In this document: positions 2,684 through 12,211 of the stretch, one piece after another | Layout: every line of letters starts with the position of its first letter | Position numbering within the stretch: position 1 is the stretch's first letter | IMG/VR virus record: IMGVR_UViG_3300030438_000300 | Direction: 5' to 3' (one strand) | From: a virus | Lineage: Duplodnaviria > Heunggongvirae > Uroviricota > Caudoviricetes | DNA: 30,806 bases | Notes under the pieces: generated by a model | Told to the model about the DNA's origin: nothing | The model's input: only the letters and a program-made list of their open reading frames with translations | Database searches by the model: none | Translations under genes and position numbers: made by a program

Positions 2684-2956
2684 TCATCTCGCCGTCAGTT
2701 GTTTTGATTTCCTGTAGCCTGCCGCGTAAATGGCTACGTTCGGAAGACAAGTTGAACCTTCATATTTTCTGGTCAACGTTGTCAGAGTTATCACTTCTGC
2801 TCTCATTGCTGGTTTGCGCTTGCATTGCAAGACCACTCGTGAAGGGGTTGGCCTGTGTAGCTTGTCGGAGCTGATCGCCTCCTGACTTTGCAGATTTGCG
2901 CGACGAGCTCTACGGCGAGAAGCTGCGGTGCCTTTAAATTCTGTTTTTCTGGACAT
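2684..2956 (-). CDS. N: N-type transcription antitermination protein (P22 gp24-like)
   Basis: 90-aa product starting MSRKTEFKGTAASRRRARRANLQ (arginine-rich motif) and ending NVAIYAAGYRKSKQLTAR, matching the recalled C-terminus of P22 N. GGGAGGA RBS 5 nt upstream. The ORF-track extension to 3028 lacks an RBS and runs into nutL. Confidence 0.8.
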   Translation of the reverse strand: MSRKTEFKGTAASRRRARRANLQSQEAISSDKLHRPTPSRVVLQCKRKPAMRAEVITLTTLTRKYEGSTCLPNVAIYAAGYRKSKQLTAR

Positions 2957-3055
2957 GGATTCCTCCCGAATAAACTTTGGCGATGCAATCTCGAAGCTCC
3001 TCCTGAGACGGTTGCTTCGGCATTGCATCCCACAGCTTATGTGGTTGGGTGATCT

Positions 3056-3100
3056 GGCTTTTCAGCCACGTAGTCGAGAGTCGACGTTGTTTAAAGAGCC
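3056..3100 (-). promoter_or_regulatory. nutL: Candidate nutL (boxA plus boxB-like hairpin)
   Basis: Minus strand reads GCTCTTTAAACAA (boxA-like, cf. consensus CGCTCTTTA), then a GTCGA-CTC-TCGAC hairpin, then GGCTGAAAAGCC (stem with purine-rich loop), located between the presumed pL and the N start. Confidence 0.5.
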
Positions 3101-3260
3101 TGCCAGTCTGTTCCATTTGGCTTCCAGCGTCCTGCTGACGATTAAATAGTACGATATGTACTTTACAAGATCAATACAATTTGTTGTAAGTTGGCGTGGT
3201 TTTTTATAACGCTTTGTATTTAATAGTGTTGTTTTTTAGCGTGGATGTATTGCCTCGGCG
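3101..3260 (-). promoter_or_regulatory. Candidate pL/OL operator-promoter region
   Basis: AT-rich non-coding region upstream of nutL/N. Contains motifs also present in the cI-cro intergenic region: TAACGCTTTGTATT (about 3207-3220) and, inverted, GTACTTTAC... (about 3152-3168). Confidence 0.4.
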
Positions 3261-3360
3261 ATGTAAGGAGAGATCAGAATTGCGTGGTTTAGTGGGTTGC
3301 ATCTATTTATTTTTCAATAAATACAATTGGTTATGTGTTTTTAGGTGGGGCGATCGTGAG

Positions 3361-3388
3361 GCAAAGAAAACCCGGCGCTGAGACCGGG
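3361..3388 (-). terminator. Intrinsic terminator immediately downstream of the RexB-like gene
   Basis: On the minus strand, stop TAA (3391-3389) is followed by hairpin CCCGGTCTCAGCGCCGGG (3388-3371) and TTTTCTTTG. Confidence 0.55.
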
Positions 3389-3880
3389 TTATTGTTGCTT
3401 GAGTTTTTCGTTATAAATCTGTTTCAGCTTTATTGGTATGAAAAAAGAGCATCCAAATGAAATTATGCTTAGCCAGCATATAATAAACTCAAGTGCCAGA
3501 CTCAGGTTGGTCACAGGCGGCTTGCTTGCTAAGATTTTACTGGTGTCTCCTGGTGGCAGCAGCATGTAGTAGAAGAATATTAAGCACAAGACTGTAAGAT
3601 AGAGGTAAAAAAGCATCATGTAACGAGAAAACCGAATTTCGAATTTCCTCTTAGTTGCATACTTTTCTGATCTTGATTTACCTTCTGTAAACGATGCTAC
3701 GTCTCCACTTGTGGTTATAACAAGTAACAGAAACCCTGTTAATATTGAAAATATATTTGCCACAAGTCCAAGCAACTCTTTGTTATATCTAACCTTATCA
3801 TGTAAATAATAAGTTAATACAAGAGAAAGGCAGATAAAAAAGATTATGGAAAAAATATAACTCCAATCTTTACCTCTCAT
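3389..3880 (-). CDS. RexB-position small integral membrane protein (4 predicted TM helices); candidate effector of a phage-exclusion system
   Basis: 163-aa ORF with four hydrophobic segments (YIFSIIFFICLSLVLTYYL, LLGLVANIFSILTGFLLLVITT, YMMLFYLYLTVLCLIFFYYMLL, LSLALEFIICWLSIISFGCSFFI). Strongly AT-rich. Same strand as cI and last gene of the cI-distal pair, as rexB is in lambda. No sequence similarity to lambda RexB recognised. Confidence 0.65.
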   Translation of the reverse strand: MRGKDWSYIFSIIFFICLSLVLTYYLHDKVRYNKELLGLVANIFSILTGFLLLVITTSGDVASFTEGKSRSEKYATKRKFEIRFSRYMMLFYLYLTVLCLIFFYYMLLPPGDTSKILASKPPVTNLSLALEFIICWLSIISFGCSFFIPIKLKQIYNEKLKQQ

Positions 3881-3917
3881 TCACACCTCCCCCTTTGGTT
3901 ATACGTACAACCCTCCA

Positions 3918-4769
3918 TTATAGTATGAAATCCTTGAAGTGCTCAAGAATTTCCTTAGCGTGTTCCGCTTTTATGGTGGTAGAGCCATACTTTCTTGTGT
4001 AATAATCTTTTTTTGTTTTGATTTCAGAGCTTTTGATCGCTTGGCCTTTTGATGTTGTGATGAAGAACTCTTCCGATAATTCATCAATGATCAGGCTTGG
4101 ATTTTTGTTCGCAATATTTAAGAGTTTTGGGTTATGTCTCTTGTCAAGAGTCAGAAGCCCATAGAAAGAGTTGTCATCATCTTGCTCTTTCTCAAATAAT
4201 CTTGACAAAGCTTCTTTAGCTTTTCCAGTGATACCTAATGATGTTGCTTTTGCCTCTTCTAGATCTTCTTTTGTTGTTTCAATACTTAGGCTGATGGAGC
4301 GTATTCCATCTTTTATTATCTTGCCAAGTGCATCTTTGTTGAGTTTCTCAGAAATATTCACATTGATATTCATGAGGCTAAATATTTTTTTTAACTTAGA
4401 TAAAGGATGAGTTCCTGATAGTTGAAAAATTGTTAGAATATTGCTTTCTGTTGCAAGTAAGAATATATGGCATTTATCATAATTATCTACATCCTGCAAA
4501 TCGTTATGGTCTCCATCTTTTGGAGTTACCGGGACCAAAGCTTTGGGCTCATAGAGTGTTATCCCAGCAAAGATTTGGTCATCGTTAACTATTAGACTTT
4601 TTATCCTTGCCCGAGTGTCGTTAGAGTACTCAAAGTCATAGTTTTGTTTGAAATTTTCGCATGTCTTCAAGACATCTACAAATGAGTATCCGTCATTACA
4701 ATCTACTTCAAATAGCGAAGTTTGTACTTTTTTGGGGAAATCTTTATTTTTTTCTTCCGAAAAATTCAT
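3918..4769 (-). CDS. RexA-position soluble protein; candidate sensor of a phage-exclusion system
   Basis: About 283-aa ORF from ATG 4769, with AAGGA RBS 6 nt upstream (the ORF track begins 2 codons earlier at TTG 4775). Lys/Asp/Glu-rich and AT-rich. No Walker, HNH or other catalytic motif recognised. Sits between cI and the 4-TM gene, as rexA does in lambda. Confidence 0.65.
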   Translation of the reverse strand: MNFSEEKNKDFPKKVQTSLFEVDCNDGYSFVDVLKTCENFKQNYDFEYSNDTRARIKSLIVNDDQIFAGITLYEPKALVPVTPKDGDHNDLQDVDNYDKCHIFLLATESNILTIFQLSGTHPLSKLKKIFSLMNINVNISEKLNKDALGKIIKDGIRSISLSIETTKEDLEEAKATSLGITGKAKEALSRLFEKEQDDDNSFYGLLTLDKRHNPKLLNIANKNPSLIIDELSEEFFITTSKGQAIKSSEIKTKKDYYTRKYGSTTIKAEHAKEILEHFKDFIL

Positions 4770-4868
4770 TGGCAATCCTTACTTTTTAATAAATGATTTT
4801 CAGTAAATTAATCAGTAAGTTGTTTAGCATAGGGTATGTGCGCTTTTGATAAATTACATGCAGTCACA

Positions 4869-5522
4869 TCACCCAAACGTCTCTTCAGGCCACTGACTAG
4901 CGATAACTTTCCCCACAACGGAACAACTCTCATTGCATGGGATCATTGGGTATTGTGGGTTTAGTGGCTGTAGAAACATCTGACCGCTATCCCTGATCAG
5001 TTTCTTGAAGGTAAACTCATCACCACCAAGTCTGGCTATACAGAAATCGCCTGGCTCAACAGCCTGCTCAGGGTCAACCAGAATTAACATCCCGTCAGGA
5101 AAGCTGGGCTTGGAACCTGTTGGTGCGGTCATTGAGTTACCTTCAACCTCAAGCCAGAATGCAGAGTCACTGGCTTTTTTGGTTGTGCTTACCAATCTCT
5201 CCGCATCGCCTTTGGTAAAGGTTCTGAGTTCTGGAGAGAACATCCCAGCCTGAACATGAGAAAAAACAGGGTACTCATATTGTTTTTTAACTGGGGCCGA
5301 TGAGTATTCGCCAACAGGTGAAAATGTCCCGTCGTGGTTGAATGATATGTTATCAATACCAAGGTATTTAAACACCACACCAATATCACTAAGAGATGGA
5401 TGACGAGATCCGCGCAACCAGTGTCCAATCCCACCCTGCGTCATACCTAGCTCTTCGGCTAACTTCTCTTGAGTTATGCCGAGCTCTTTCATTCTGGATC
5501 TAGCCAGTTCATACCATTTCAT
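4869..5522 (-). CDS. cI: CI-type prophage repressor (XRE HTH N-domain plus LexA/S24-like C-domain)
   Basis: The C-terminal ~130 aa ([27 protein letters not shown]...[15 protein letters not shown]) are near-identical to the lambda cI C-terminal domain as recalled. The N-terminal HTH ([38 protein letters not shown]) is different. Start chosen at the second Met (AGGA at 7-nt spacing); Met 5528 or the ORF-track start 5570 are alternatives. Confidence 0.9.
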
Positions 5523-5528
5523 TTTCAT

Positions 5529-5638
5529 GTCCTTATTATTACGCTTTGTACTGGAACCATCCATGCACAATGTGTATTTTTACTTGTATTCGTAAAGTAC
5601 ATATTGTATTTTTTATTCGTGTTTACTATGGAGGGCAT
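5529..5638. promoter_or_regulatory. Candidate OR operator region with divergent pRM/pR
   Basis: 110-bp AT-rich intergenic between divergent cI and cro. Contains TTACGCTTTGTACT (5539-5552) and GTAAAGTACATAT (5592-5604), both recurring upstream of N. Confidence 0.55.
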
Positions 5639-5854
5639 ATGAGCAACCTACGAAAATATCGAGAGTCACTGAATATCTCTCAAACAACACTTGCTAAGGC
5701 AGTTGGATGCACACAGGGAGCTATCGGACATTGGGAATCTGGTCGTCGCTTCCCAGACCTTAAAACATGCCGTGCTCTTGTTGCGTGCCTAAACAAGTTA
5801 GGCGCAAAAGTCAGTCTTGATGACGTGTTCCCGCCGGAACACAAAGCCGCTTAA
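5639..5854 (+). CDS. cro: Cro-like repressor (HTH XRE family)
   Basis: 71-aa product MSNLRKYRESLNISQTTLAKAVGCTQGAIGHWESGRRFP with GGAGGG RBS. Its recognition-helix region is paralogous to that of the adjacent cI (TQGGIGHW vs TQGAIGHW). Confidence 0.85.
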   Translation: MSNLRKYRESLNISQTTLAKAVGCTQGAIGHWESGRRFPDLKTCRALVACLNKLGAKVSLDDVFPPEHKAA

Positions 5855-5864
5855 TAAGCGGATC

Positions 5865-5909
5865 CGCTCTTTGTAACAACGGACATTCGTCCTACGTCGC
5901 TGAAAAGCG
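5865..5909 (+). promoter_or_regulatory. nutR: Candidate nutR (boxA plus boxB-like hairpin)
   Basis: CGCTCTTTGTAACAA (boxA-like) 11 nt after the cro stop, then a GGAC-ATTC-GTCC hairpin, then CGCTGAAAAGCG. Same architecture as the nutL candidate. Confidence 0.5.
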
Positions 5910-5995
5910 AGTTCCAAGATATCTGACCAACTAAGGCCATATGCGTTTCCACGCATACCTTTCAACTAACTATTCACTATTGGAAATCTTAAGAA

Positions 5996-6292
5996 ATGGA
6001 AAGAACAAGTTACAGCAAACTATCACAGCGTGACGTTGATCGCGCAGAAACAGATTTACTTATCAATCTGTCAGCTATTACCCAGCGCGGTCTGGCAAAG
6101 ATGATTGGCTGTCATGAATCGAAGATAAGCAGAACGGATTGGAGATTTATTGCTTCGGTCTTGTGTGCTTTCGGAATGGCATCAGACATCAGTCCGATTA
6201 GCAGGGCTTTTAAGTATGCGCTTGATGGACTCACCAATAAAAAACGCCCGGCGGCAACCGAGCGTTCTGAACAAATCCAGATGGAGTTCTGA
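5996..6292 (+). CDS. cII: CII-type transcriptional activator (hybrid)
   Basis: 98 aa. C-terminal LTNKKRPAATERSEQIQMEF matches the lambda CII C-terminus as recalled; the N-terminal ~75 aa differ. Weak RBS. Confidence 0.8.
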   Translation: MERTSYSKLSQRDVDRAETDLLINLSAITQRGLAKMIGCHESKISRTDWRFIASVLCAFGMASDISPISRAFKYALDGLTNKKRPAATERSEQIQMEF

Positions 6293-6324
6293 GGTCATTA
6301 CTGGATCTATCAACAGGAGTCATT

Positions 6325-7224
6325 ATGACAAATACAGCAAAAATACTCAACTTCGGCAGAGGTAACTTTGCCGGACAGGAGCGTAATGTGGCAGATCTCG
6401 ATGATGGTTACGCCAGACTATCAAATATGCTGCTTGAGGCTTATTCGGGCGCAGATCTGACCAAGCGACAGTTTAAAGTGCTGCTTGCCATTCTGCGTAA
6501 AACCTATGGGTGGAATAAACCAATGGACAGAATCACCGATTCTCAACTTAGCGAGATTACAAAGTTACCTGTCAAACGGTGCAATGAAGCCAAGTTAGAA
6601 CTCGTCAGAATGAATATTATCAAGCAGCAAGGCGGCATGTTTGGACCAAATAAAAACATCTCAGAATGGTGCATCCCTCAAAACGAGGGAAAATCCCCTA
6701 AAACGAGGGATAAAACATCCCTCAAATTGGGGGATTGCTATCCCTCAAAACAGGGGGACACAAAAGACACTATTACAAAAGAAAAAAGAAAAGATTATTC
6801 GTCAGAGAATTCTGGCGAATCCTCTGACCAGCCAGAAAACGACCTTTCTGTGGTGAAACCGGATGCTGCAATTCAGAGCGGCAGCAAGTGGGGGACAGCA
6901 GAAGACCTGACCGCCGCAGAGTGGATGTTTGACATGGTGAAGACTATCGCACCATCAGCCAGAAAACCGAATTTTGCTGGGTGGGCTAACGATATCCGCC
7001 TGATGCGTGAACGTGACGGACGTAACCACCGCGACATGTGCGTGCTGTTCCGCTGGGCATGCCAGGACAACTTCTGGTCCGGTAACGTGCTGAGCCCGGC
7101 CAAACTCCGCGATAAGTGGACCCAACTCGAAATCAACCGTAACAAGCAACAGGCAGGCGTGACAGCCAGCAAACCAAAACTCGACCTGACAAACACAGAC
7201 TGGATTTACGGGGTGGATCTATGA
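6325..7224 (+). CDS. O: Replication initiator O (lambda-type)
   Basis: 299-aa product MTNTAKILNFGRGNFAGQERNVADLDDGYARLSNMLLEAY... is essentially lambda O as recalled and contains the ori iterons. Confidence 0.95.
   Translation: MTNTAKILNFGRGNFAGQERNVADLDDGYARLSNMLLEAYSGADLTKRQFKVLLAILRKTYGWNKPMDRITDSQLSEITKLPVKRCNEAKLELVRMNIIKQQGGMFGPNKNISEWCIPQNEGKSPKTRDKTSLKLGDCYPSKQGDTKDTITKEKRKDYSSENSGESSDQPENDLSVVKPDAAIQSGSKWGTAEDLTAAEWMFDMVKTIAPSARKPNFAGWANDIRLMRERDGRNHRDMCVLFRWACQDNFWSGNVLSPAKLRDKWTQLEINRNKQQAGVTASKPKLDLTNTDWIYGVDL
6673..6758 (+). repeat. ori: ori-lambda iterons (four ~19-bp O-binding repeats) followed by an A/T-rich unwinding region
   Basis: ATCCCTCAAAACGAGGGAA, ATCCCCTAAAACGAGGGAT, ATCCCTCAAATTGGGGGAT and ATCCCTCAAAACAGGGGGA, followed by ACAAAAGACACTATTACAAAAGAAAAAAGAAAAG (about 6760-6800). 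Confidence 0.9.
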
Positions 7225-7922
7225 AAAACATCGCCGCACAGATGGTTAACTTTGACCGTGAGCAGATGCGTCGGATCGCCAACAACATGCCGGAACAGTA
7301 CGATGAAAAGCCGCAGGTACAGCAGGTAGCGCAGATCATCAACGGTGTGTTCAGCCAGTTACTGGCAACTTTCCCGGCGAGCCTGGCTAACCGTGACCAG
7401 AACGAAGTGAACGAAATCCGTCGCCAGTGGGTTCTGGCTTTTCGGGAAAACGGGATCACCACGATGGAACAGGTTAACGCAGGAATGCGCGTAGCCCGTC
7501 GGCAGAATCGACCATTTCTGCCATCACCCGGGCAGTTTGTTGCATGGTGCCGGGAAGAAGCATCCGTTATCGCCGGACTGCCAAACGTCAGCGAGCTGGT
7601 TGATATGGTTTACGAGTATTGCCGGAAGCGAGGCCTGTATCCGGATGCGGAGTCTTATCCGTGGAAATCAAACGCGCACTACTGGCTGGTTACCAACCTG
7701 TATCAGAACATGCGGGCCAATGCGCTTACTGATGCGGAATTACGCCGTAAGGCCGCAGATGAGCTTGTCCATATGACTGCGAGAATTAACCGTGGTGAGG
7801 CGATCCCTGAACCAGTAAAACAACTTCCTGTCATGGGCGGTAGACCTCTAAATCGTGCACAGGCTCTGGCGAAGATCGCAGAAATCAAAGCTAAGTTCGG
7901 ACTAAAAGGAGCAAGTGTATGA
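7221..7922 (+). CDS. P: Replication protein P (DnaB helicase loader, lambda-type)
   Basis: 233-aa product MKNIAAQMVNFDREQMRRIANNMPEQYDEKPQVQQVAQIINGVF... matches lambda P as recalled. ATGA overlap with the O stop. Confidence 0.95.
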   Translation: MKNIAAQMVNFDREQMRRIANNMPEQYDEKPQVQQVAQIINGVFSQLLATFPASLANRDQNEVNEIRRQWVLAFRENGITTMEQVNAGMRVARRQNRPFLPSPGQFVAWCREEASVIAGLPNVSELVDMVYEYCRKRGLYPDAESYPWKSNAHYWLVTNLYQNMRANALTDAELRRKAADELVHMTARINRGEAIPEPVKQLPVMGGRPLNRAQALAKIAEIKAKFGLKGASV

Positions 7923-8209
7923 CGGGCAAAGAGGCAATTATTCATTACCTGGGGACGCATAATAGCTTCTGTGCGCCGGACGTTGCCGCGCTAACAGGCG
8001 CAACAGTAACCAGCATAAATCAGGCCGCGGCTAAAATGGCACGGGCAGGTCTTCTGGTTATCGAAGGTAAGGTCTGGCGAACGGTGTATTACCGGTTTGC
8101 TACTAGGGAAGAACGGGAAGGAAAGATGAGCACGAACCTGATTTTTAAGGAGTGTCGCCAGAGTGCCGCGATGAAACGGGTATTGGCGGTATATGGAGTT
8201 AAAAGATGA
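7919..8209 (+). CDS. ren: Ren (Rex exclusion escape protein, lambda-type)
   Basis: 96-aa product MTGKEAIIHYLGTHNSFCAPDVAALTGATVTSINQAAAKMARAGLLVIEGKVWRT matches lambda Ren as recalled. ATGA overlap with P. Confidence 0.9.
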   Translation: MTGKEAIIHYLGTHNSFCAPDVAALTGATVTSINQAAAKMARAGLLVIEGKVWRTVYYRFATREEREGKMSTNLIFKECRQSAAMKRVLAVYGVKR

Positions 8210-8234
8210 CCATCTACATTACTGAGCTAATAAC

Positions 8235-8266
8235 AGGCCTGCTGGTAATCGCAGGCCTTTTTATTT
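8235..8266 (+). terminator. tR2: tR2-like intrinsic terminator
   Basis: Hairpin AGGCCTGC-tggtaatc-GCAGGCCT followed by TTTTATTT, between ren and ninB, as at lambda tR2. Confidence 0.7.
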
Positions 8267-8282
8267 GGGGGAGAGGGAAGTC

Positions 8283-8723
8283 ATGAAAAAACTAACCTTT
8301 GAAATTCGATCTCCAGCACATCAGCAAAACGCTATTCACGCAGTACAGCAAATCCTTCCAGACCCAACCAAACCAATCGTAGTAACCATTCAGGAACGCA
8401 ACCGCAGCTTAGACCAAAACAGGAAGCTATGGGCCTGCTTAGGTGACGTCTCTCGTCAGGTTGAATGGCATGGTCGCTGGCTGGATGCAGAAAGCTGGAA
8501 GTGTGTGTTTACCGCAGCATTAAAGCAGCAGGATGTTGTTCCTAACCTTGCCGGGAATGGCTTTGTGGTAATAGGCCAGTCAACCAGCAGGATGCGTGTA
8601 GGCGAATTTGCGGAGCTATTAGAGCTTATACAGGCATTCGGTACAGAGCGTGGCGTTAAGTGGTCAGACGAAGCGAGACTGGCTCTGGAGTGGAAAGCGA
8701 GATGGGGAGATCGGGCTGCATGA
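8283..8723 (+). CDS. ninB: NinB (recombination mediator, Orf family)
   Basis: 146-aa product MKKLTFEIRSPAHQQNAIHAVQQILPDPTKPIVVTIQERNRSLDQNRKLWACLGDVSRQVEWHG... matches lambda NinB as recalled. GGAG-rich RBS. The ORF track has a 6-codon upstream extension. Confidence 0.9.
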   Translation: MKKLTFEIRSPAHQQNAIHAVQQILPDPTKPIVVTIQERNRSLDQNRKLWACLGDVSRQVEWHGRWLDAESWKCVFTAALKQQDVVPNLAGNGFVVIGQSTSRMRVGEFAELLELIQAFGTERGVKWSDEARLALEWKARWGDRAA

Positions 8724-9247
8724 CAATCAAATCAAATACGCCAGCACACGACAAGGACTGCTGGCAAACGCCGCTTTGGCTTTTTGATGCACTGGATATT
8801 GAGTTTGGATTCTGGCTGGATTCGGCAGCGAGCGACAAAAATGCTCTGTGTGCTCACTGGCTAACTGAGGCCGACGACGCGCTCAATTCTGAGTGGGTAA
8901 GCCACGGTGCAATCTGGAATAACCCACCGTACAGCAATATCAGGCCGTGGGTGGAAAAAGCCGCTGAGCAGTGCATACAACAGCGACAGACGGTAGTTAT
9001 GCTTGTGCCAGAGGATATGTCAGTCGGATGGTTCAGCAAGGCTCTGGAGAGTGTCGACGAAGTTCGCATTATCACTGATGGACGGATTAATTTTATCGAA
9101 CCATCGACAGGGTTGGAGAAGAAGGGAAACAGCAAAGGCTCCATGCTGCTGATTTGGCGACCGTTCATCAGTCCTCGACGGATGTTTACTACCGTATCCA
9201 AAGCGGCATTGATGGCGATCGGGCAGGGCGTCAGGAGGGCGGCATGA
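8720..9247 (+). CDS. Phage DNA N6-adenine methyltransferase (Dam-like, orphan)
   Basis: 175-aa product from [26 protein letters not shown]... with catalytic-type motif [12 protein letters not shown] overlap with the ninB stop. No cognate restriction gene is seen. Confidence 0.8.
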
Positions 9248-11128: not shown

Positions 11129-12211
11129 TTAGAACTGATACACCAGACCTACAGCGACGATGTCGTCGGTATCAATACCAGCTGTTTTGGTAAACTTACT
11201 ATCGTCAATTAAGTTGATTTTGTAATCAACAAAAGTGGACATGTTTTTATTAAAGTAGTAAGTAGCACCGACATCGACATACTTGACTAAGTCTCGGTCA
11301 CCATGAACACCAAGGTCTTTACCTTTTGACTGAAGGTAAGCAACAGATGGTCGCAGACCGAAGTCAAACTGATATTGTGCTACTGCTTCAAAGTTTTGTG
11401 CTTTGTTTGCAATATGGTTATTACCAAAAACGGTCATATTCTGAGTTTCAGAATATGTGGTAGCCAGATAGATATTGTTCGCATCATATTTCAGGCCTGC
11501 AGCCCATACTTCCGCATTTTTGCCGGAGGCATTGAATTTGCTCTTACCATAGGCGACCTGACCGTCAGTGCGATCTGATTTAGCATAGGTTGCACCCACG
11601 CCGAATCCTTCATACTCATAAGTAGTGGAGAAACCGAAACCATCACCATTGGCTTCAGTTACGTCAGTGCGGTCATTTTTACCCTGATACTGAGCAGCAA
11701 AGTTCAGGCCATCGACCAGACCAAAGAAGTCGTTGTTACGATAGGTTGCAACACCAGTGGTGCGACCAGTCATGAACACATCTGTTTGGGTCCAGGTATC
11801 GCCACCGAATTCTGGCAGAACGTCAGTCCACGCACCGATGTCGTATGCTACACCGTAGTTACGGCCGTAATCGATTGAGCCGTAGTCACCGAATTTCAGG
11901 CCTGCAAATGCAAGACGGGTTTTGTCTTTGGAGGAACCTTGAGATTCAGCGCGGTTGCCTTTGAATTCATATTCCCACTGACCGAAACCAGTCAGTTGAT
12001 CGTTGATTTGGGTTTCACCTTTGAAGCCAAGACGGGCATAAGTAGTATCACCATCATCTGCATCATTAGAGGAGAAGTAGTGCTTAGCATTAACTTTCCC
12101 GTACAGATCCAGCTTGTTACTGTCTTTATTATAAATTTCAGCTGCCTGAGCAGACATCGCCATCAGTACTGATGCAGCTACAGCAGAAATTGCCACTGTT
12201 AATTTTTTCAT
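11129..12211 (-). CDS. nmpC: Outer membrane general porin (OmpC/NmpC family), apparently intact
   Basis: 360-aa product with signal peptide [30 protein letters not shown]..., beta-barrel porin-like sequence and C-terminal ...VGLVYQF. Lies between Q and the lysis genes on the opposite strand, as nmpC does in DLP12. Confidence 0.9.

What the first reader, a model, noticed from the sequence alone, without database searches (positions are those of the whole stretch)
4869..6292. Immunity cassette swapped inside lambda-like cI and cII genes
The cI C-terminal domain and the last ~20 aa of cII look lambda-identical from memory, whereas the cI N-terminal HTH, the operators, cro and the cII N-terminus are different. 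That places the recombination junctions inside coding sequences, which should give the prophage a non-lambda immunity specificity on an otherwise lambda-like replication backbone.
Basis: partly seen in the sequence, partly recalled or inferred. Interest (0 to 1): 0.45.

Follow-up and report, generated by a model that had tools for sequence, protein, structure and literature searches.

The report
Ordinary mosaic lambdoid immunity region
This lambda-like E. coli prophage carries the common VT2-Sakai-type repressor, operators and Cro joined to lambda-like sequence at sharp junctions inside cI and cII, but these junctions and the whole arrangement are already known, so the finding is real and ordinary.

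Summary
Lambda matches window 4868-5279 (the cI C-terminal part: 94.7% nt, 134/136 aa) and 6230-8726 (the last 20 codons of cII through O, P, ren and ninB: 99.64%). Nothing is detectable in between. The breaks are sharp and fall on codon boundaries.

It is not one cassette swapped into lambda. It is a patchwork of at least five modules with different histories:
- VT2-Sakai-type N, nutL and OL.
- A cI C-terminal module shared at 92-96% by phages with two different repressor N-terminal domains.
- VT2-Sakai-type cI N-terminal domain, OR and cro.
- A phage 21/933W-type nutR and cII body.
- A lambda-identical cII tail/oop block followed by lambda O and P.

The cI junction lies in the interdomain linker, 10 residues before the Ala-Gly self-cleavage site, and is the same one seen in VT2-Sakai. 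The cII junction is the same base as the right edge of the classical imm21 substitution, 8 nt past the 3' end of oop.

The whole arrangement exists at 97-99% in sequenced phages (2G7b, PhiR11_1). The immunity core occurs in 773 of 5,426 complete E. coli genomes. Non-lambda immunity is likely but untested, and a second-hand report claims VT2-Sakai/lambda cross-immunity.

Side note: the two genes in the rexAB slot look like a very divergent Rex-like pair.

The parts
2684..2956 (-). N antiterminator gene, VT2-Sakai/Stx2 II type (left part of the non-lambda immunity region)
   Evidence: The ORF is. PHROG 271 N-like, E 1.4e-25. 94.5% identical to VT2-Sakai/Stx2 II N and no lambda match. The 273-nt start follows the annotation of PhiR11_1 and VT2-Sakai.
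3057..3066 (-). nutL boxB core (GCTGAAAAGC)
   Evidence: The motif occurs exactly twice in the window (0.10 expected), here and at nutR, each on the strand of its transcript. It lies within the stretch homologous to the annotated VT2-Sakai nutL.
3147..3221 (.). OL: three 17-bp operators at 3147-3163, 3172-3188 and 3205-3221
   Evidence: The consensus AAnTACAnnnTGTAnTT gives 24 hits against 11.9 expected, and 0 of 100 shuffles reached 24. Three of the hits cluster here. The first site is identical to an annotated VT2-Sakai operator.
3369..3390 (-). timm-like terminator ending the cI operon, inside a lambda-like island (3268-3397, 90% to lambda 35708-35833)
   Evidence: Terminator scan and blastn to lambda. 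The homologous stretch is annotated Timm in CL707.
3389..3880 (-). orf163, a small protein with four hydrophobic segments in the rexB position
   Evidence: Its partner gene is conserved with it in Morganella and Xenorhabdus at 48-52% identity.
3918..4769 (-). orf285 (283 aa from its ATG), a soluble protein in the rexA position with a possible RexA/RdgC-type fold
4869..5279 (-). cI C-terminal module (residues 84-219): linker end, Ala94-Gly95 cleavage site, Ser132/Lys175, and the dimerisation/cooperativity domain. It is lambda-like.
   Evidence: 94.7% nt and 134/136 aa identical to lambda. Peptidase_S24 E 2.6e-28. It aligns to lambda repressor fragments that start at residue 101.
5280..5528 (-). 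cI N-terminal DNA-binding module (residues 1-83, HTH_3), VT2-Sakai type. Alternative starts are at 5522 (VT2-Sakai annotation) and 5564 (PGAP).
   Evidence: 99.6% identical to VT2-Sakai/Stx2 II with no lambda match. HTH_3 E 1.9e-10. Recognition helix is TQGGIGHW.
5537..5611 (.). OR: three 17-bp operators at 5537-5553 (nearest cI), 5563-5579 and 5595-5611 (nearest cro, a perfect match to the consensus)
   Evidence: Two of the three are identical to annotated VT2-Sakai operators. No lambda-type half-sites occur here.
5639..5854 (+). cro (71 aa, HTH_3 type), VT2-Sakai type
   Evidence: HTH_3 E 4.2e-12. 98.6% identical to VT2-Sakai and 99.5% to 683R2. 35% identical to the cI N-terminal domain, with the same recognition helix TQGAIGHW.
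5899..5908 (+). nutR boxB core (GCTGAAAAGC), inside the nutR/cII-body module that begins at about 5864
   Evidence: The module boundary at 5864 is shared by 933W, mEp234 and HK97.
5996..6229 (+). cII body (codons 1-78), phage 21/933W/mEp234 type. A TTGC-N6-TTGT motif sits on the minus strand at 6005-6018, at the expected pRE position.
   Evidence: Phage_CII E 7e-34. Identities are, and the protein alignment is. The motif position is, where the count is at chance level, so only the position is suggestive. It matches the annotated CII site of VT2-Sakai.
6230..6292 (+). cII tail (codons 79-98 plus stop), 100% identical to lambda
6238..6314 (-). oop antisense RNA gene (77 nt), identical to lambda 38599-38675. 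Its terminator stem is at 6241-6268 and the pO hexamers at 6322-6350.
   Evidence: Zero differences from lambda in 6230-6340. Terminator and promoter scan, sequence. The statement that the last 55 nt of cII overlap oop is from PMC3349717. No Rfam family matched, so this identification rests on identity to lambda.
6325..7922 (+). Lambda-type replication genes O (6325-7224, containing ori) and P (7221-7922)
   Evidence: 99.9% and 99.6% identical to lambda. Phage_rep_O E 5.7e-36.

Best explanation
The window is the early region of a lambda-like prophage, integrated next to ybhC in E. coli. Its immunity region is an ordinary lambdoid mosaic.

How it works, by inference from homology: the repressor binds six 17-bp operators (consensus AAnTACAnnnTGTAnTT, three at OL and three at OR) through a VT2-Sakai-type helix-turn-helix domain. 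Cro carries almost the same recognition helix and competes for the same sites. The C-terminal two thirds of the repressor are 134/136 identical to lambda's. This part supplies dimerisation, cooperative binding and RecA-stimulated self-cleavage at Ala94-Gly95. CII has a phage 21/933W-type body. Its dispensable tail is lambda's because that stretch is also the oop antisense RNA gene.

How it arose: repeated recombination among lambdoid phages, with crossovers in stretches that stay similar between otherwise unrelated modules (the cI C-terminal module and the cII-tail/oop/pO block). The visible breaks therefore sit at functional boundaries. These are the cI stop codon, the interdomain linker of cI, the cro stop/nutR boundary, and the 3' end of oop.

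It was not produced by one swap into lambda. The expected phenotype is VT2-Sakai-type immunity with lambda-type replication.
For: Shown by sequence:
- Module map and sharp junctions.
- The same cI junction (lambda 37637) is present in VT2-Sakai, and the same cII junction (lambda 38591) in lambda imm21.
- The lambda-immunity phages lambda, CL707, HK97 and mEp234 all lose homology at 5279. Lambda, 434 and 683R2 all regain it at 6230.
- Divergence is unequal: the cI C-terminal part differs from lambda by 5.3%, O through ninB by 0.36%.
- The nearest relative switches near 6230-6286. Against PhiR11_1 there are about 0.4% differences to the left and about 1.6% to the right. Against lambda there are 0 differences from 6230 to about 7000.
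- Variable sites inside the C-terminal module are patchy. 683R2 has a VT2-type N-terminus but lambda-group bases next to the junction.
- A control for uniform divergence: Salmonella phage BIS08P22 cI is 53% identical in the N-terminal domain and 79% in the C-terminal domain. Lambda is 23% and 98.5%.
- Operators lie in two clusters at the expected places and match annotated VT2-Sakai operators. There are no lambda-type operators.
- The cI N-terminal domain and Cro share a recognition helix.
- The lambda-like cI module coincides with the solved self-cleaving fragment that starts at residue 101.
- oop, its terminator and pO are identical to lambda.

From the literature:
- The cII/oop overlap, the dispensable CII tail, and imm21 diverging 'within cII left of oop' (PMC3349717).
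- High C-terminal and low N-terminal homology between the VT2-Sakai and lambda CI proteins was noted in 2000 (reported via PMC10742460).
- Clade I CI proteins of Stx phages are the closest to lambda CI, at 61% overall identity (PMC8951638).
- The cI-to-N interval is a known mosaic hotspot (PMC8585504).
Against: No experiment on this prophage exists, so operator binding, immunity class and inducibility are all inferred. Sedhom and Solomon (PMC10742460) cite Fattah et al. 2000 for cross-immunity between VT2-Sakai and lambda. They also report that lambda CI binds VT2-Sakai operators in vitro, so 'heteroimmune to lambda' is not certain. However, that binding is 15-25 fold weaker than to lambda's own OR1/OL1 (3.7-6.4 uM against 0.2-0.35 uM), and the sections I read describe no non-specific DNA control. 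The primary Fattah paper is not held. The order and direction of the recombination events cannot be recovered from this small panel. The cI start codon (5528, 5522 or 5564) is not settled. oop is identified only by identity to lambda, because Rfam has no matching family.
Confidence: 0.88

Rival explanations
1. One reading: one recent event replaced a single cassette (cI N-terminus through cII N-terminus) in an otherwise lambda genome, with both crossovers inside lambda's own cI and cII.
For: Both flanks match lambda and both junctions are sharp. O through ninB are 99.6% lambda, and the prophage sits at the lambda attachment neighbourhood with lambda-like recombination and head genes.
Against: The left flank (the cI C-terminal part) is 5.3% diverged from lambda while the right flank is 0.36% diverged. 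The left flank is closer to VT2-Sakai/Stx2 II at 96%. Immediately left of cI the sequence is again non-lambda (orf285/orf163, OL, nutL, N), so cI is not embedded in lambda DNA. The interval between the junctions consists of two modules with different distributions. VT2-Sakai has the same cI junction but non-lambda replication genes.
Confidence: 0.07
2. There was no recombination. cI and cII simply evolve fast in their DNA-binding parts and slowly in their C-terminal parts, which gives the appearance of junctions.
For: The cI C-terminal part is under strong purifying selection, with 20 synonymous and 2 non-synonymous differences from lambda. The cII tail is constrained by the overlapping oop gene.
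Against: Nucleotide identity falls from about 95% to undetectable within about 3 bases, exactly at a codon boundary. Synonymous sites are also conserved in the C-terminal part, which selection on the protein would not maintain. A truly diverged ortholog, BIS08P22, shows 53% and 79% identity in the two domains rather than 23% and 98.5%. The same C-terminal module is attached to two unrelated N-terminal types, and variable sites are patchy.
Confidence: 0.03
3. The junctions are an assembly or chimera artefact of the contig.
For: None found.
Against: The 2.9-kb stretch 3389-6292 is 99.2-100% identical in seven complete E. coli genomes from different hosts and countries. The same arrangement occurs in independently isolated phages 2G7b and PhiR11_1.
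Confidence: 0.01

Closest known systems
Immunity region of Stx2 phage VT2-Sakai (AP000422) and Stx2 phage II (AP005154): CI 'Clade I' of Stx phages
   Same: The cI N-terminal module is 99.6% identical, cro 98.6%, OR 94.6%, and N and OL 93-94%. The junction with lambda homology in cI is the same (lambda 37637). There are three plus three 17-bp operators, and three of the six are identical.
   Different: VT2-Sakai has the alternative cII tail/oop allele (78% identity; tail EITKKKSPAATEDFKQIDMQF), HK022/P22-type replication genes, and different genes between cI and OL. The window has a lambda oop/O/P block and an orf285/orf163 pair.
Phages 2G7b (NC_049954), PhiR11_1 (PV340547), ev017, ev207, 2B8, E212
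   Same: These carry the same overall arrangement: VT2-Sakai-type cI/cro, 21-type cII body, and lambda-type O. Identity is 97-99.3% over window 4600/4868-6500. 2G7b and PhiR11_1 also carry orf285/orf163.
   Different: PhiR11_1 is about 1.6% diverged to the right of about 6286. There the window is closer to lambda itself, at 0.36%.
Phage 21 cII and the classical lambda imm21 hybrid (OM418625)
   Same: The cII architecture is the same: a 21-type body with a lambda-type tail. Non-homology with lambda ends at the same base, lambda 38591.
   Different: Phage 21 has an unrelated repressor, operators and Cro. Its tail/oop differs from lambda at a few bases, whereas the window's is identical to lambda.
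Lambda cI repressor and the lambda-immunity wild phages (HK97, mEp234, CL707)
   Same: The C-terminal module (linker end, cleavage site, S24 domain) is 94-95% identical in nt and 134/136 in aa.
   Different: The N-terminal DNA-binding domain is only 23-30% identical, the operator sequences differ, and Cro has a different fold type.

Membership tests
Lambdoid CI repressor (HTH_3 N-terminal domain plus LexA-like S24 self-cleaving C-terminal domain) | HTH DNA-binding domain followed by a Peptidase_S24 domain | tested here: met
   Pfam HTH_3 at residues 11-58 (E 1.9e-10) and Peptidase_S24 at residues 87-209 (E 2.6e-28).
Lambdoid CI repressor (HTH_3 N-terminal domain plus LexA-like S24 self-cleaving C-terminal domain) | Ala-Gly cleavage site and the catalytic Ser/Lys dyad | tested here: met
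   Ala94-Gly95, Ser132 and Lys175 align with lambda Ala111-Gly112, Ser149 and Lys192 in a stretch that is 134/136 identical.
Lambdoid CI repressor (HTH_3 N-terminal domain plus LexA-like S24 self-cleaving C-terminal domain) | Divergently transcribed from cro across a tripartite operator, with a second tripartite operator at pL | tested here: met
   Three sites lie between cI and cro and three lie upstream of N.
Lambdoid CI repressor (HTH_3 N-terminal domain plus LexA-like S24 self-cleaving C-terminal domain) | Represses pL and pR, and is cleaved on SOS induction | not testable with these tools
   This needs binding, reporter and induction experiments.
VT2-Sakai / Stx2 II immunity type | Same repressor DNA-binding domain, Cro and operator sequences | tested here: met
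   N-terminal module 99.6%, cro 98.6%, OR 94.6%. Three of the six operators are identical and the others differ by 1-2 bases.
VT2-Sakai / Stx2 II immunity type | Mutual immunity in lysogens | not testable with these tools
   This needs plating tests.
Lambda immunity (imm lambda) | Lambda-type operators (half-site TATCACCGC) at OL and OR | tested here: not met
   There are 8 one-mismatch half-sites against 5.8 expected, and none lies in OL or OR.
Lambda immunity (imm lambda) | Lambda-type repressor N-terminal domain and lambda Cro | tested here: not met
   The N-terminal domain is 30% identical over 50 aa. Cro is HTH_3 type with no significant similarity to lambda Cro.
Lambda immunity (imm lambda) | Functional immunity to lambda | not testable with these tools
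   A second-hand report claims VT2-Sakai/lambda cross-immunity. In-vitro binding of lambda CI to VT2-Sakai operators is weak.
CII transcriptional activator | Phage_CII domain | tested here: met
   PF05269 E 7e-34, covering the full length.
CII transcriptional activator | TTGC-N6-TTGC-type site at the -35 region of pRE, inside the 5' end of cII on the opposite strand | tested here: inconclusive
   TTGCTGTAACTTGT lies at 6005-6018 on the minus strand, at the position annotated in VT2-Sakai. The motif count in the window is at chance level, 4 against 4.25 expected.
oop antisense RNA | 77-nt leftward transcript overlapping the cII 3' end, with its own promoter pO and an intrinsic terminator | tested here: met
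   Zero differences from lambda over 6230-6340. The terminator is at 6268-6241 and the promoter-like site at 6350-6322. The overlap is described in PMC3349717. Expression was not tested, and Rfam has no model that matched.
Lambda-type replication module | O with internal ori, plus P | tested here: met
   O is 99.9% and P is 99.6% identical to lambda.
RexAB-like exclusion pair (side observation, window 3389-4769) | Detectable sequence homology to RexA and RexB | tested here: not met
   BLASTP E-values are above 1. There are no PADLOC or Pfam hits and no PDB sequence hit.
RexAB-like exclusion pair (side observation, window 3389-4769) | RexA/RdgC-type fold in the soluble partner | tested here: inconclusive
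   [not shown]
RexAB-like exclusion pair (side observation, window 3389-4769) | Small multi-pass membrane partner, with both genes downstream of cI and upstream of timm | tested here: met
   orf163 has four hydrophobic segments, as RexB does. The gene order and the terminator are conserved.
RexAB-like exclusion pair (side observation, window 3389-4769) | Excludes superinfecting phage | not testable with these tools
   This needs plating of T4 rII and other phages.

The most novel reading that the evidence does not exclude
The C-terminal module carries the dimer and dimer-dimer interfaces and is 134/136 identical to lambda's. This repressor could therefore form mixed dimers or mixed cooperative assemblies with lambda-immunity repressors when both prophages share a cell. 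That would produce partial cross-immunity, dominant-negative weakening of both lysogens, or coupled induction. It would offer a mechanism for the second-hand report of VT2-Sakai/lambda cross-immunity despite unrelated operators. About 14% of complete E. coli genomes carry this immunity core, so such cross-talk would be common.
Probability: 0.15. Interest if true: 0.45.

Novelty: already known. Interest (0 to 1): 0.13.

Why it matters
It matters little as a discovery. Modular exchange at domain and gene boundaries is the textbook property of lambdoid phages. These particular junctions were described for VT2-Sakai (cI) and imm21 (cII) decades ago. The exact arrangement is already deposited in several phage genomes and hundreds of E. 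coli genomes.

Its use is as a clean worked example. Two of the junctions sit at functional boundaries: the hinge of the repressor, and the 3' end of an antisense RNA gene that overlaps a dispensable protein tail. The conserved blocks beside them plausibly act as crossover points.

Two follow-ups have some value. One is whether repressors that share a C-terminal domain but not DNA specificity interfere with each other in polylysogens. The other is whether the orf285/orf163 pair is a functional, sequence-unrecognisable Rex-like exclusion system.

Tried and rejected
- Rfam scan of the whole window at gathering thresholds found nothing. oop therefore could not be confirmed by a family model and rests on identity to lambda.
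- The literature search for the PhiR phage names returned only irrelevant papers.
- The primary paper on VT2-Sakai/lambda cross-immunity (Fattah et al. 2000) is not held. Four other papers that list it gave no description of its result in the passages retrieved: three showed only the reference-list entry and one cited it for phage-grouping methods. That claim therefore rests on one secondary description.
- The promoter consensus scan did not pick up pR or pRM and is not significantly enriched: 12 found against 8.0 +/- 2.7 expected. Promoter positions are therefore not asserted beyond homology to the VT2-Sakai annotation.
- The CII-site motif count is at chance level.
- I considered and rejected three explanations: a single cassette swap, rate heterogeneity without recombination, and an assembly artefact (see the rival explanations).
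- I also considered whether the 69%-identical Salmonella repressors were the reciprocal recombinant (same N-terminal domain on a different C-terminal domain). They are uniformly diverged orthologs instead.
Full report
**What is there.** The finding covers three genes of a lambdoid early region. cI is on the minus strand (4869-5528, 219 aa, ORF open to 5570), with HTH_3 and Peptidase_S24 domains. cro (5639-5854, 71 aa) is of the HTH_3 type. cII (5996-6292, 98 aa) has a Phage_CII domain. Lambda-type O and P follow. The window is 100% identical over 3389-6292 to a prophage of E. coli S1-CAM-01-C. That prophage sits beside ybhC, the lambda attachment neighbourhood, and has lambda-like int/xis, red, replication and head genes.

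**Checking the observation.** blastn against lambda finds window 4868-5279 at 94.66% and 6230-8726 at 99.64%, with nothing detectable from 5280 to 6229. Base-by-base comparison shows abrupt breaks. Homology begins at the cI stop codon (4868/4869). It ends with the last base of cI codon 84 (5279). It resumes with the first base of cII codon 79 (6230). The cI C-terminal 136 residues are 134/136 identical to lambda, and the 22 nucleotide differences are 20 synonymous and 2 non-synonymous. The last 20 residues of CII are identical, as is their DNA. The N-terminal parts are truly different. The cI N-terminal domain is 30% identical over 50 aa, Cro is not alignable, and the cII body is weakly alike. 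The only correction is that the cI C-terminal part is about 95% identical to lambda in DNA, not 100%.

**Anatomy of the switch.** A symmetric 17-bp consensus, AAnTACAnnnTGTAnTT, gives 24 hits in the window against 11.9 expected, and none of 100 shuffles reached 24. Six of the hits form two clusters. Three lie between cI and cro (5537, 5563, 5595), and the last of these is the only perfect match. Three lie upstream of N (3147, 3172, 3205). Three of the six are identical to operators annotated in VT2-Sakai. Lambda-type half-sites are at chance level and absent from both clusters. The cI N-terminal domain and Cro are 35% identical and share the recognition helix TQG(G/A)IGHW, as expected for two proteins competing for the same sites. 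A boxB core, GCTGAAAAGC, occurs exactly twice (0.10 expected), at the nutL and nutR positions on the correct strands.

**Module map.** I compared the window with twelve reference regions: lambda, PhiR11_1, Stx2 II, VT2-Sakai, lambda imm21, HK97, 933W, 434, mEp234, CL707, 683R2 and HK022. The 'cassette' is composite.
- N, nutL and OL (2684-3267) are VT2-Sakai type at 93-94%.
- A short lambda-like island (3268-3397, 90%) holds the timm terminator.
- orf163 and orf285 (3389-4775) occur only in PhiR11_1 and 2G7b among phages, and in 7 of 5,426 complete E. coli genomes.
- The cI C-terminal module (4869-5279) is shared at 92-96% by lambda-immunity phages (lambda, HK97, mEp234, CL707) and by VT2-type phages (VT2-Sakai, Stx2 II, 683R2).
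- cI N-terminal domain, OR and cro (5280-5854) are VT2-Sakai type at 99.6%, 94.6% and 98.6%. They also occur in the P22-like phage 683R2, where homology stops at the cro stop codon and a lambda-type cII follows.
- nutR and the cII body (5864-6229) are shared with 933W, mEp234 and HK97. From about 5964 they are also shared with 21 and HK022.
- The cII tail, oop and pO (6230 to about 6333) are 100% lambda, but only 78% identical to the allele found in VT2-Sakai, 933W, mEp234, HK97 and HK022.
- O, P, ren and ninB are 99.3-99.9% lambda.

**The junction in cI.** Codon 84 corresponds to lambda Tyr101 in mature numbering. It lies in the interdomain linker, ten residues before the Ala111-Gly112 self-cleavage site (window Ala94-Gly95). 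The lambda-like module is therefore the whole self-cleaving, dimerising, cooperativity-bearing part. It coincides with the crystallised lambda fragments that begin at residue 101 (2ho0, 8gmu). VT2-Sakai loses lambda homology at the same base, lambda 37637. The contrast between high C-terminal and low N-terminal homology in the VT2-Sakai and lambda CI proteins was noted by Fattah et al. in 2000, as reported in PMC10742460. A survey of 260 Stx-phage CI proteins places the Eru2/Eru3 'Clade I' proteins closest to lambda CI, at 61% overall identity (PMC8951638). The pattern is recombination rather than rate variation, for two reasons. First, synonymous sites are conserved in the C-terminal part. 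Second, a truly diverged ortholog, Salmonella phage BIS08P22, is 53% and 79% identical in the two domains, whereas lambda is 23% and 98.5%.

**The junction in cII.** Lambda imm21 regains lambda homology at exactly lambda 38591, which is window 6230. On the minus strand, the promoter and terminator scan finds a 12-bp-stem terminator at 6268-6241 and a promoter-like site at 6350-6322. By identity to lambda these are the oop terminator and pO. The 77-nt oop gene maps to 6314-6238, so the junction lies 8 nt beyond the oop 3' end. Hayes et al. (PMC3349717) make four relevant statements. The last 55 nt of cII overlap oop. The last 17 residues of CII are dispensable for activity but needed for OOP control. 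imm21 differs 'within cII left of oop'. A lambda/P22 hybrid diverges at 38694 within pO, which is where the VT2-Sakai-type phages stop matching the window (about 6332-6336). The roughly 104-bp cII-tail/oop/pO block is thus a discrete unit bounded by two classical junctions. The protein alignment shows three CII architectures: lambda body with lambda tail; 21-type body with an alternative tail; and 21-type body with lambda tail. The window has the last one, as phage 21 does.

**History.** The two lambda-like flanks do not share a history. The cI C-terminal part is 5.3% from lambda and slightly closer to VT2-Sakai, while O through ninB is 0.36% from lambda. Against its nearest overall relative, PhiR11_1, the window differs at about 0.4% of positions left of 6286 and about 1.6% right of it. 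Against lambda it has no differences at all from 6230 to about 7000. A crossover in or near the oop block is therefore recent. Inside the cI C-terminal module the variable sites are patchy. The window's 3' end matches lambda, while its junction-proximal end matches VT2-Sakai. 683R2 has a VT2-type N-terminus but carries lambda-group bases next to the junction. I read this as repeated homologous exchange using the conserved blocks as crossover sites. This is the modular picture long established for lambdoid phages (established knowledge; the cI-to-N interval is cited as a mosaic hotspot in PMC8585504). The order of events cannot be recovered from this panel.

**Immunity phenotype.** From the operators, recognition helix and Cro, the prophage should have VT2-Sakai-type immunity and lambda-type replication. 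This is inference. One caveat is that Sedhom and Solomon (PMC10742460) cite Fattah et al. for cross-immunity between VT2-Sakai and lambda. They also show lambda CI shifting VT2-Sakai operator oligonucleotides. Their apparent Kd values are 3.7-6.4 uM, against 0.21-0.35 uM for lambda OL1/OR1 in the same assay. The sections I read describe no non-specific control. I could not obtain the primary paper. I therefore treat heteroimmunity to lambda as likely but unproven. The near-identical C-terminal domain leaves open mixed oligomers with lambda repressor in double lysogens.

**Novelty.** There is none for the finding itself. The whole arrangement (VT2-type cI/cro, 21-type cII body, lambda O) is present at 97-99.3% in phages 2G7b, PhiR11_1, ev017, ev207, 2B8, E212 and others. 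The cI N-terminal/OR/cro core is present in 773 of 5,426 complete E. coli genomes.

Noticed in passing
[not shown]
   Followed up: yes
window 6230-6333: The cII tail/oop/pO block behaves as a separate ~104-bp module with two alleles about 78% alike: a lambda/434/21 type and an HK022/933W/VT2-Sakai type. Its left edge (lambda 38591) coincides with the imm21 boundary. Its right edge (about lambda 38694) coincides with the divergence point reported for a lambda/P22 hybrid.
   Followed up: yes
window 5537-5611 and 3147-3221: Operator spacing differs from lambda. Centre-to-centre distances are 26 and 32 bp at OR and 25 and 33 bp at OL. From memory, lambda's are about 23-24 bp. With a lambda-identical cooperativity domain, the pairing geometry of adjacent dimers may differ from lambda's.
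   Followed up: no
window 5522-5570: The cI start codon is annotated three ways in related records: ATG 5564 (PGAP), ATG 5528, and ATG 5522 (VT2-Sakai). A start at 5564 would place the two cI-proximal operators inside the coding sequence. A start at 5528 or 5522 would imply a very short or absent leader from pRM, as in lambda.
   Followed up: partly
window 6078-6234 compared with L005 (lambda imm21): The window's cII body is itself patchy relative to phage 21. There are 18 differences in 5996-6077 but only 1 in 6078-6229. mEp234 is closer in the first part, with 5 differences.
   Followed up: partly
L013 27741-28823 (about window 11129-12211 by offset; not read directly in the window): An OmpC/OmpD-type porin gene lies on the opposite strand between the Q antiterminator and the lysis genes. 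It is also annotated in PhiR11_1. It is a lysogenic-conversion cargo gene unrelated to the finding.
   Followed up: no
L018 1398-1506 (Salmonella phage BIS08P22): A P22-like Salmonella phage carries a uniformly diverged ortholog of this repressor (53% and 79% identity in the two domains). Its cI-cro intergenic region contains similar ATACA...TGTAT sites, so this operator family extends beyond E. coli phages.
   Followed up: partly
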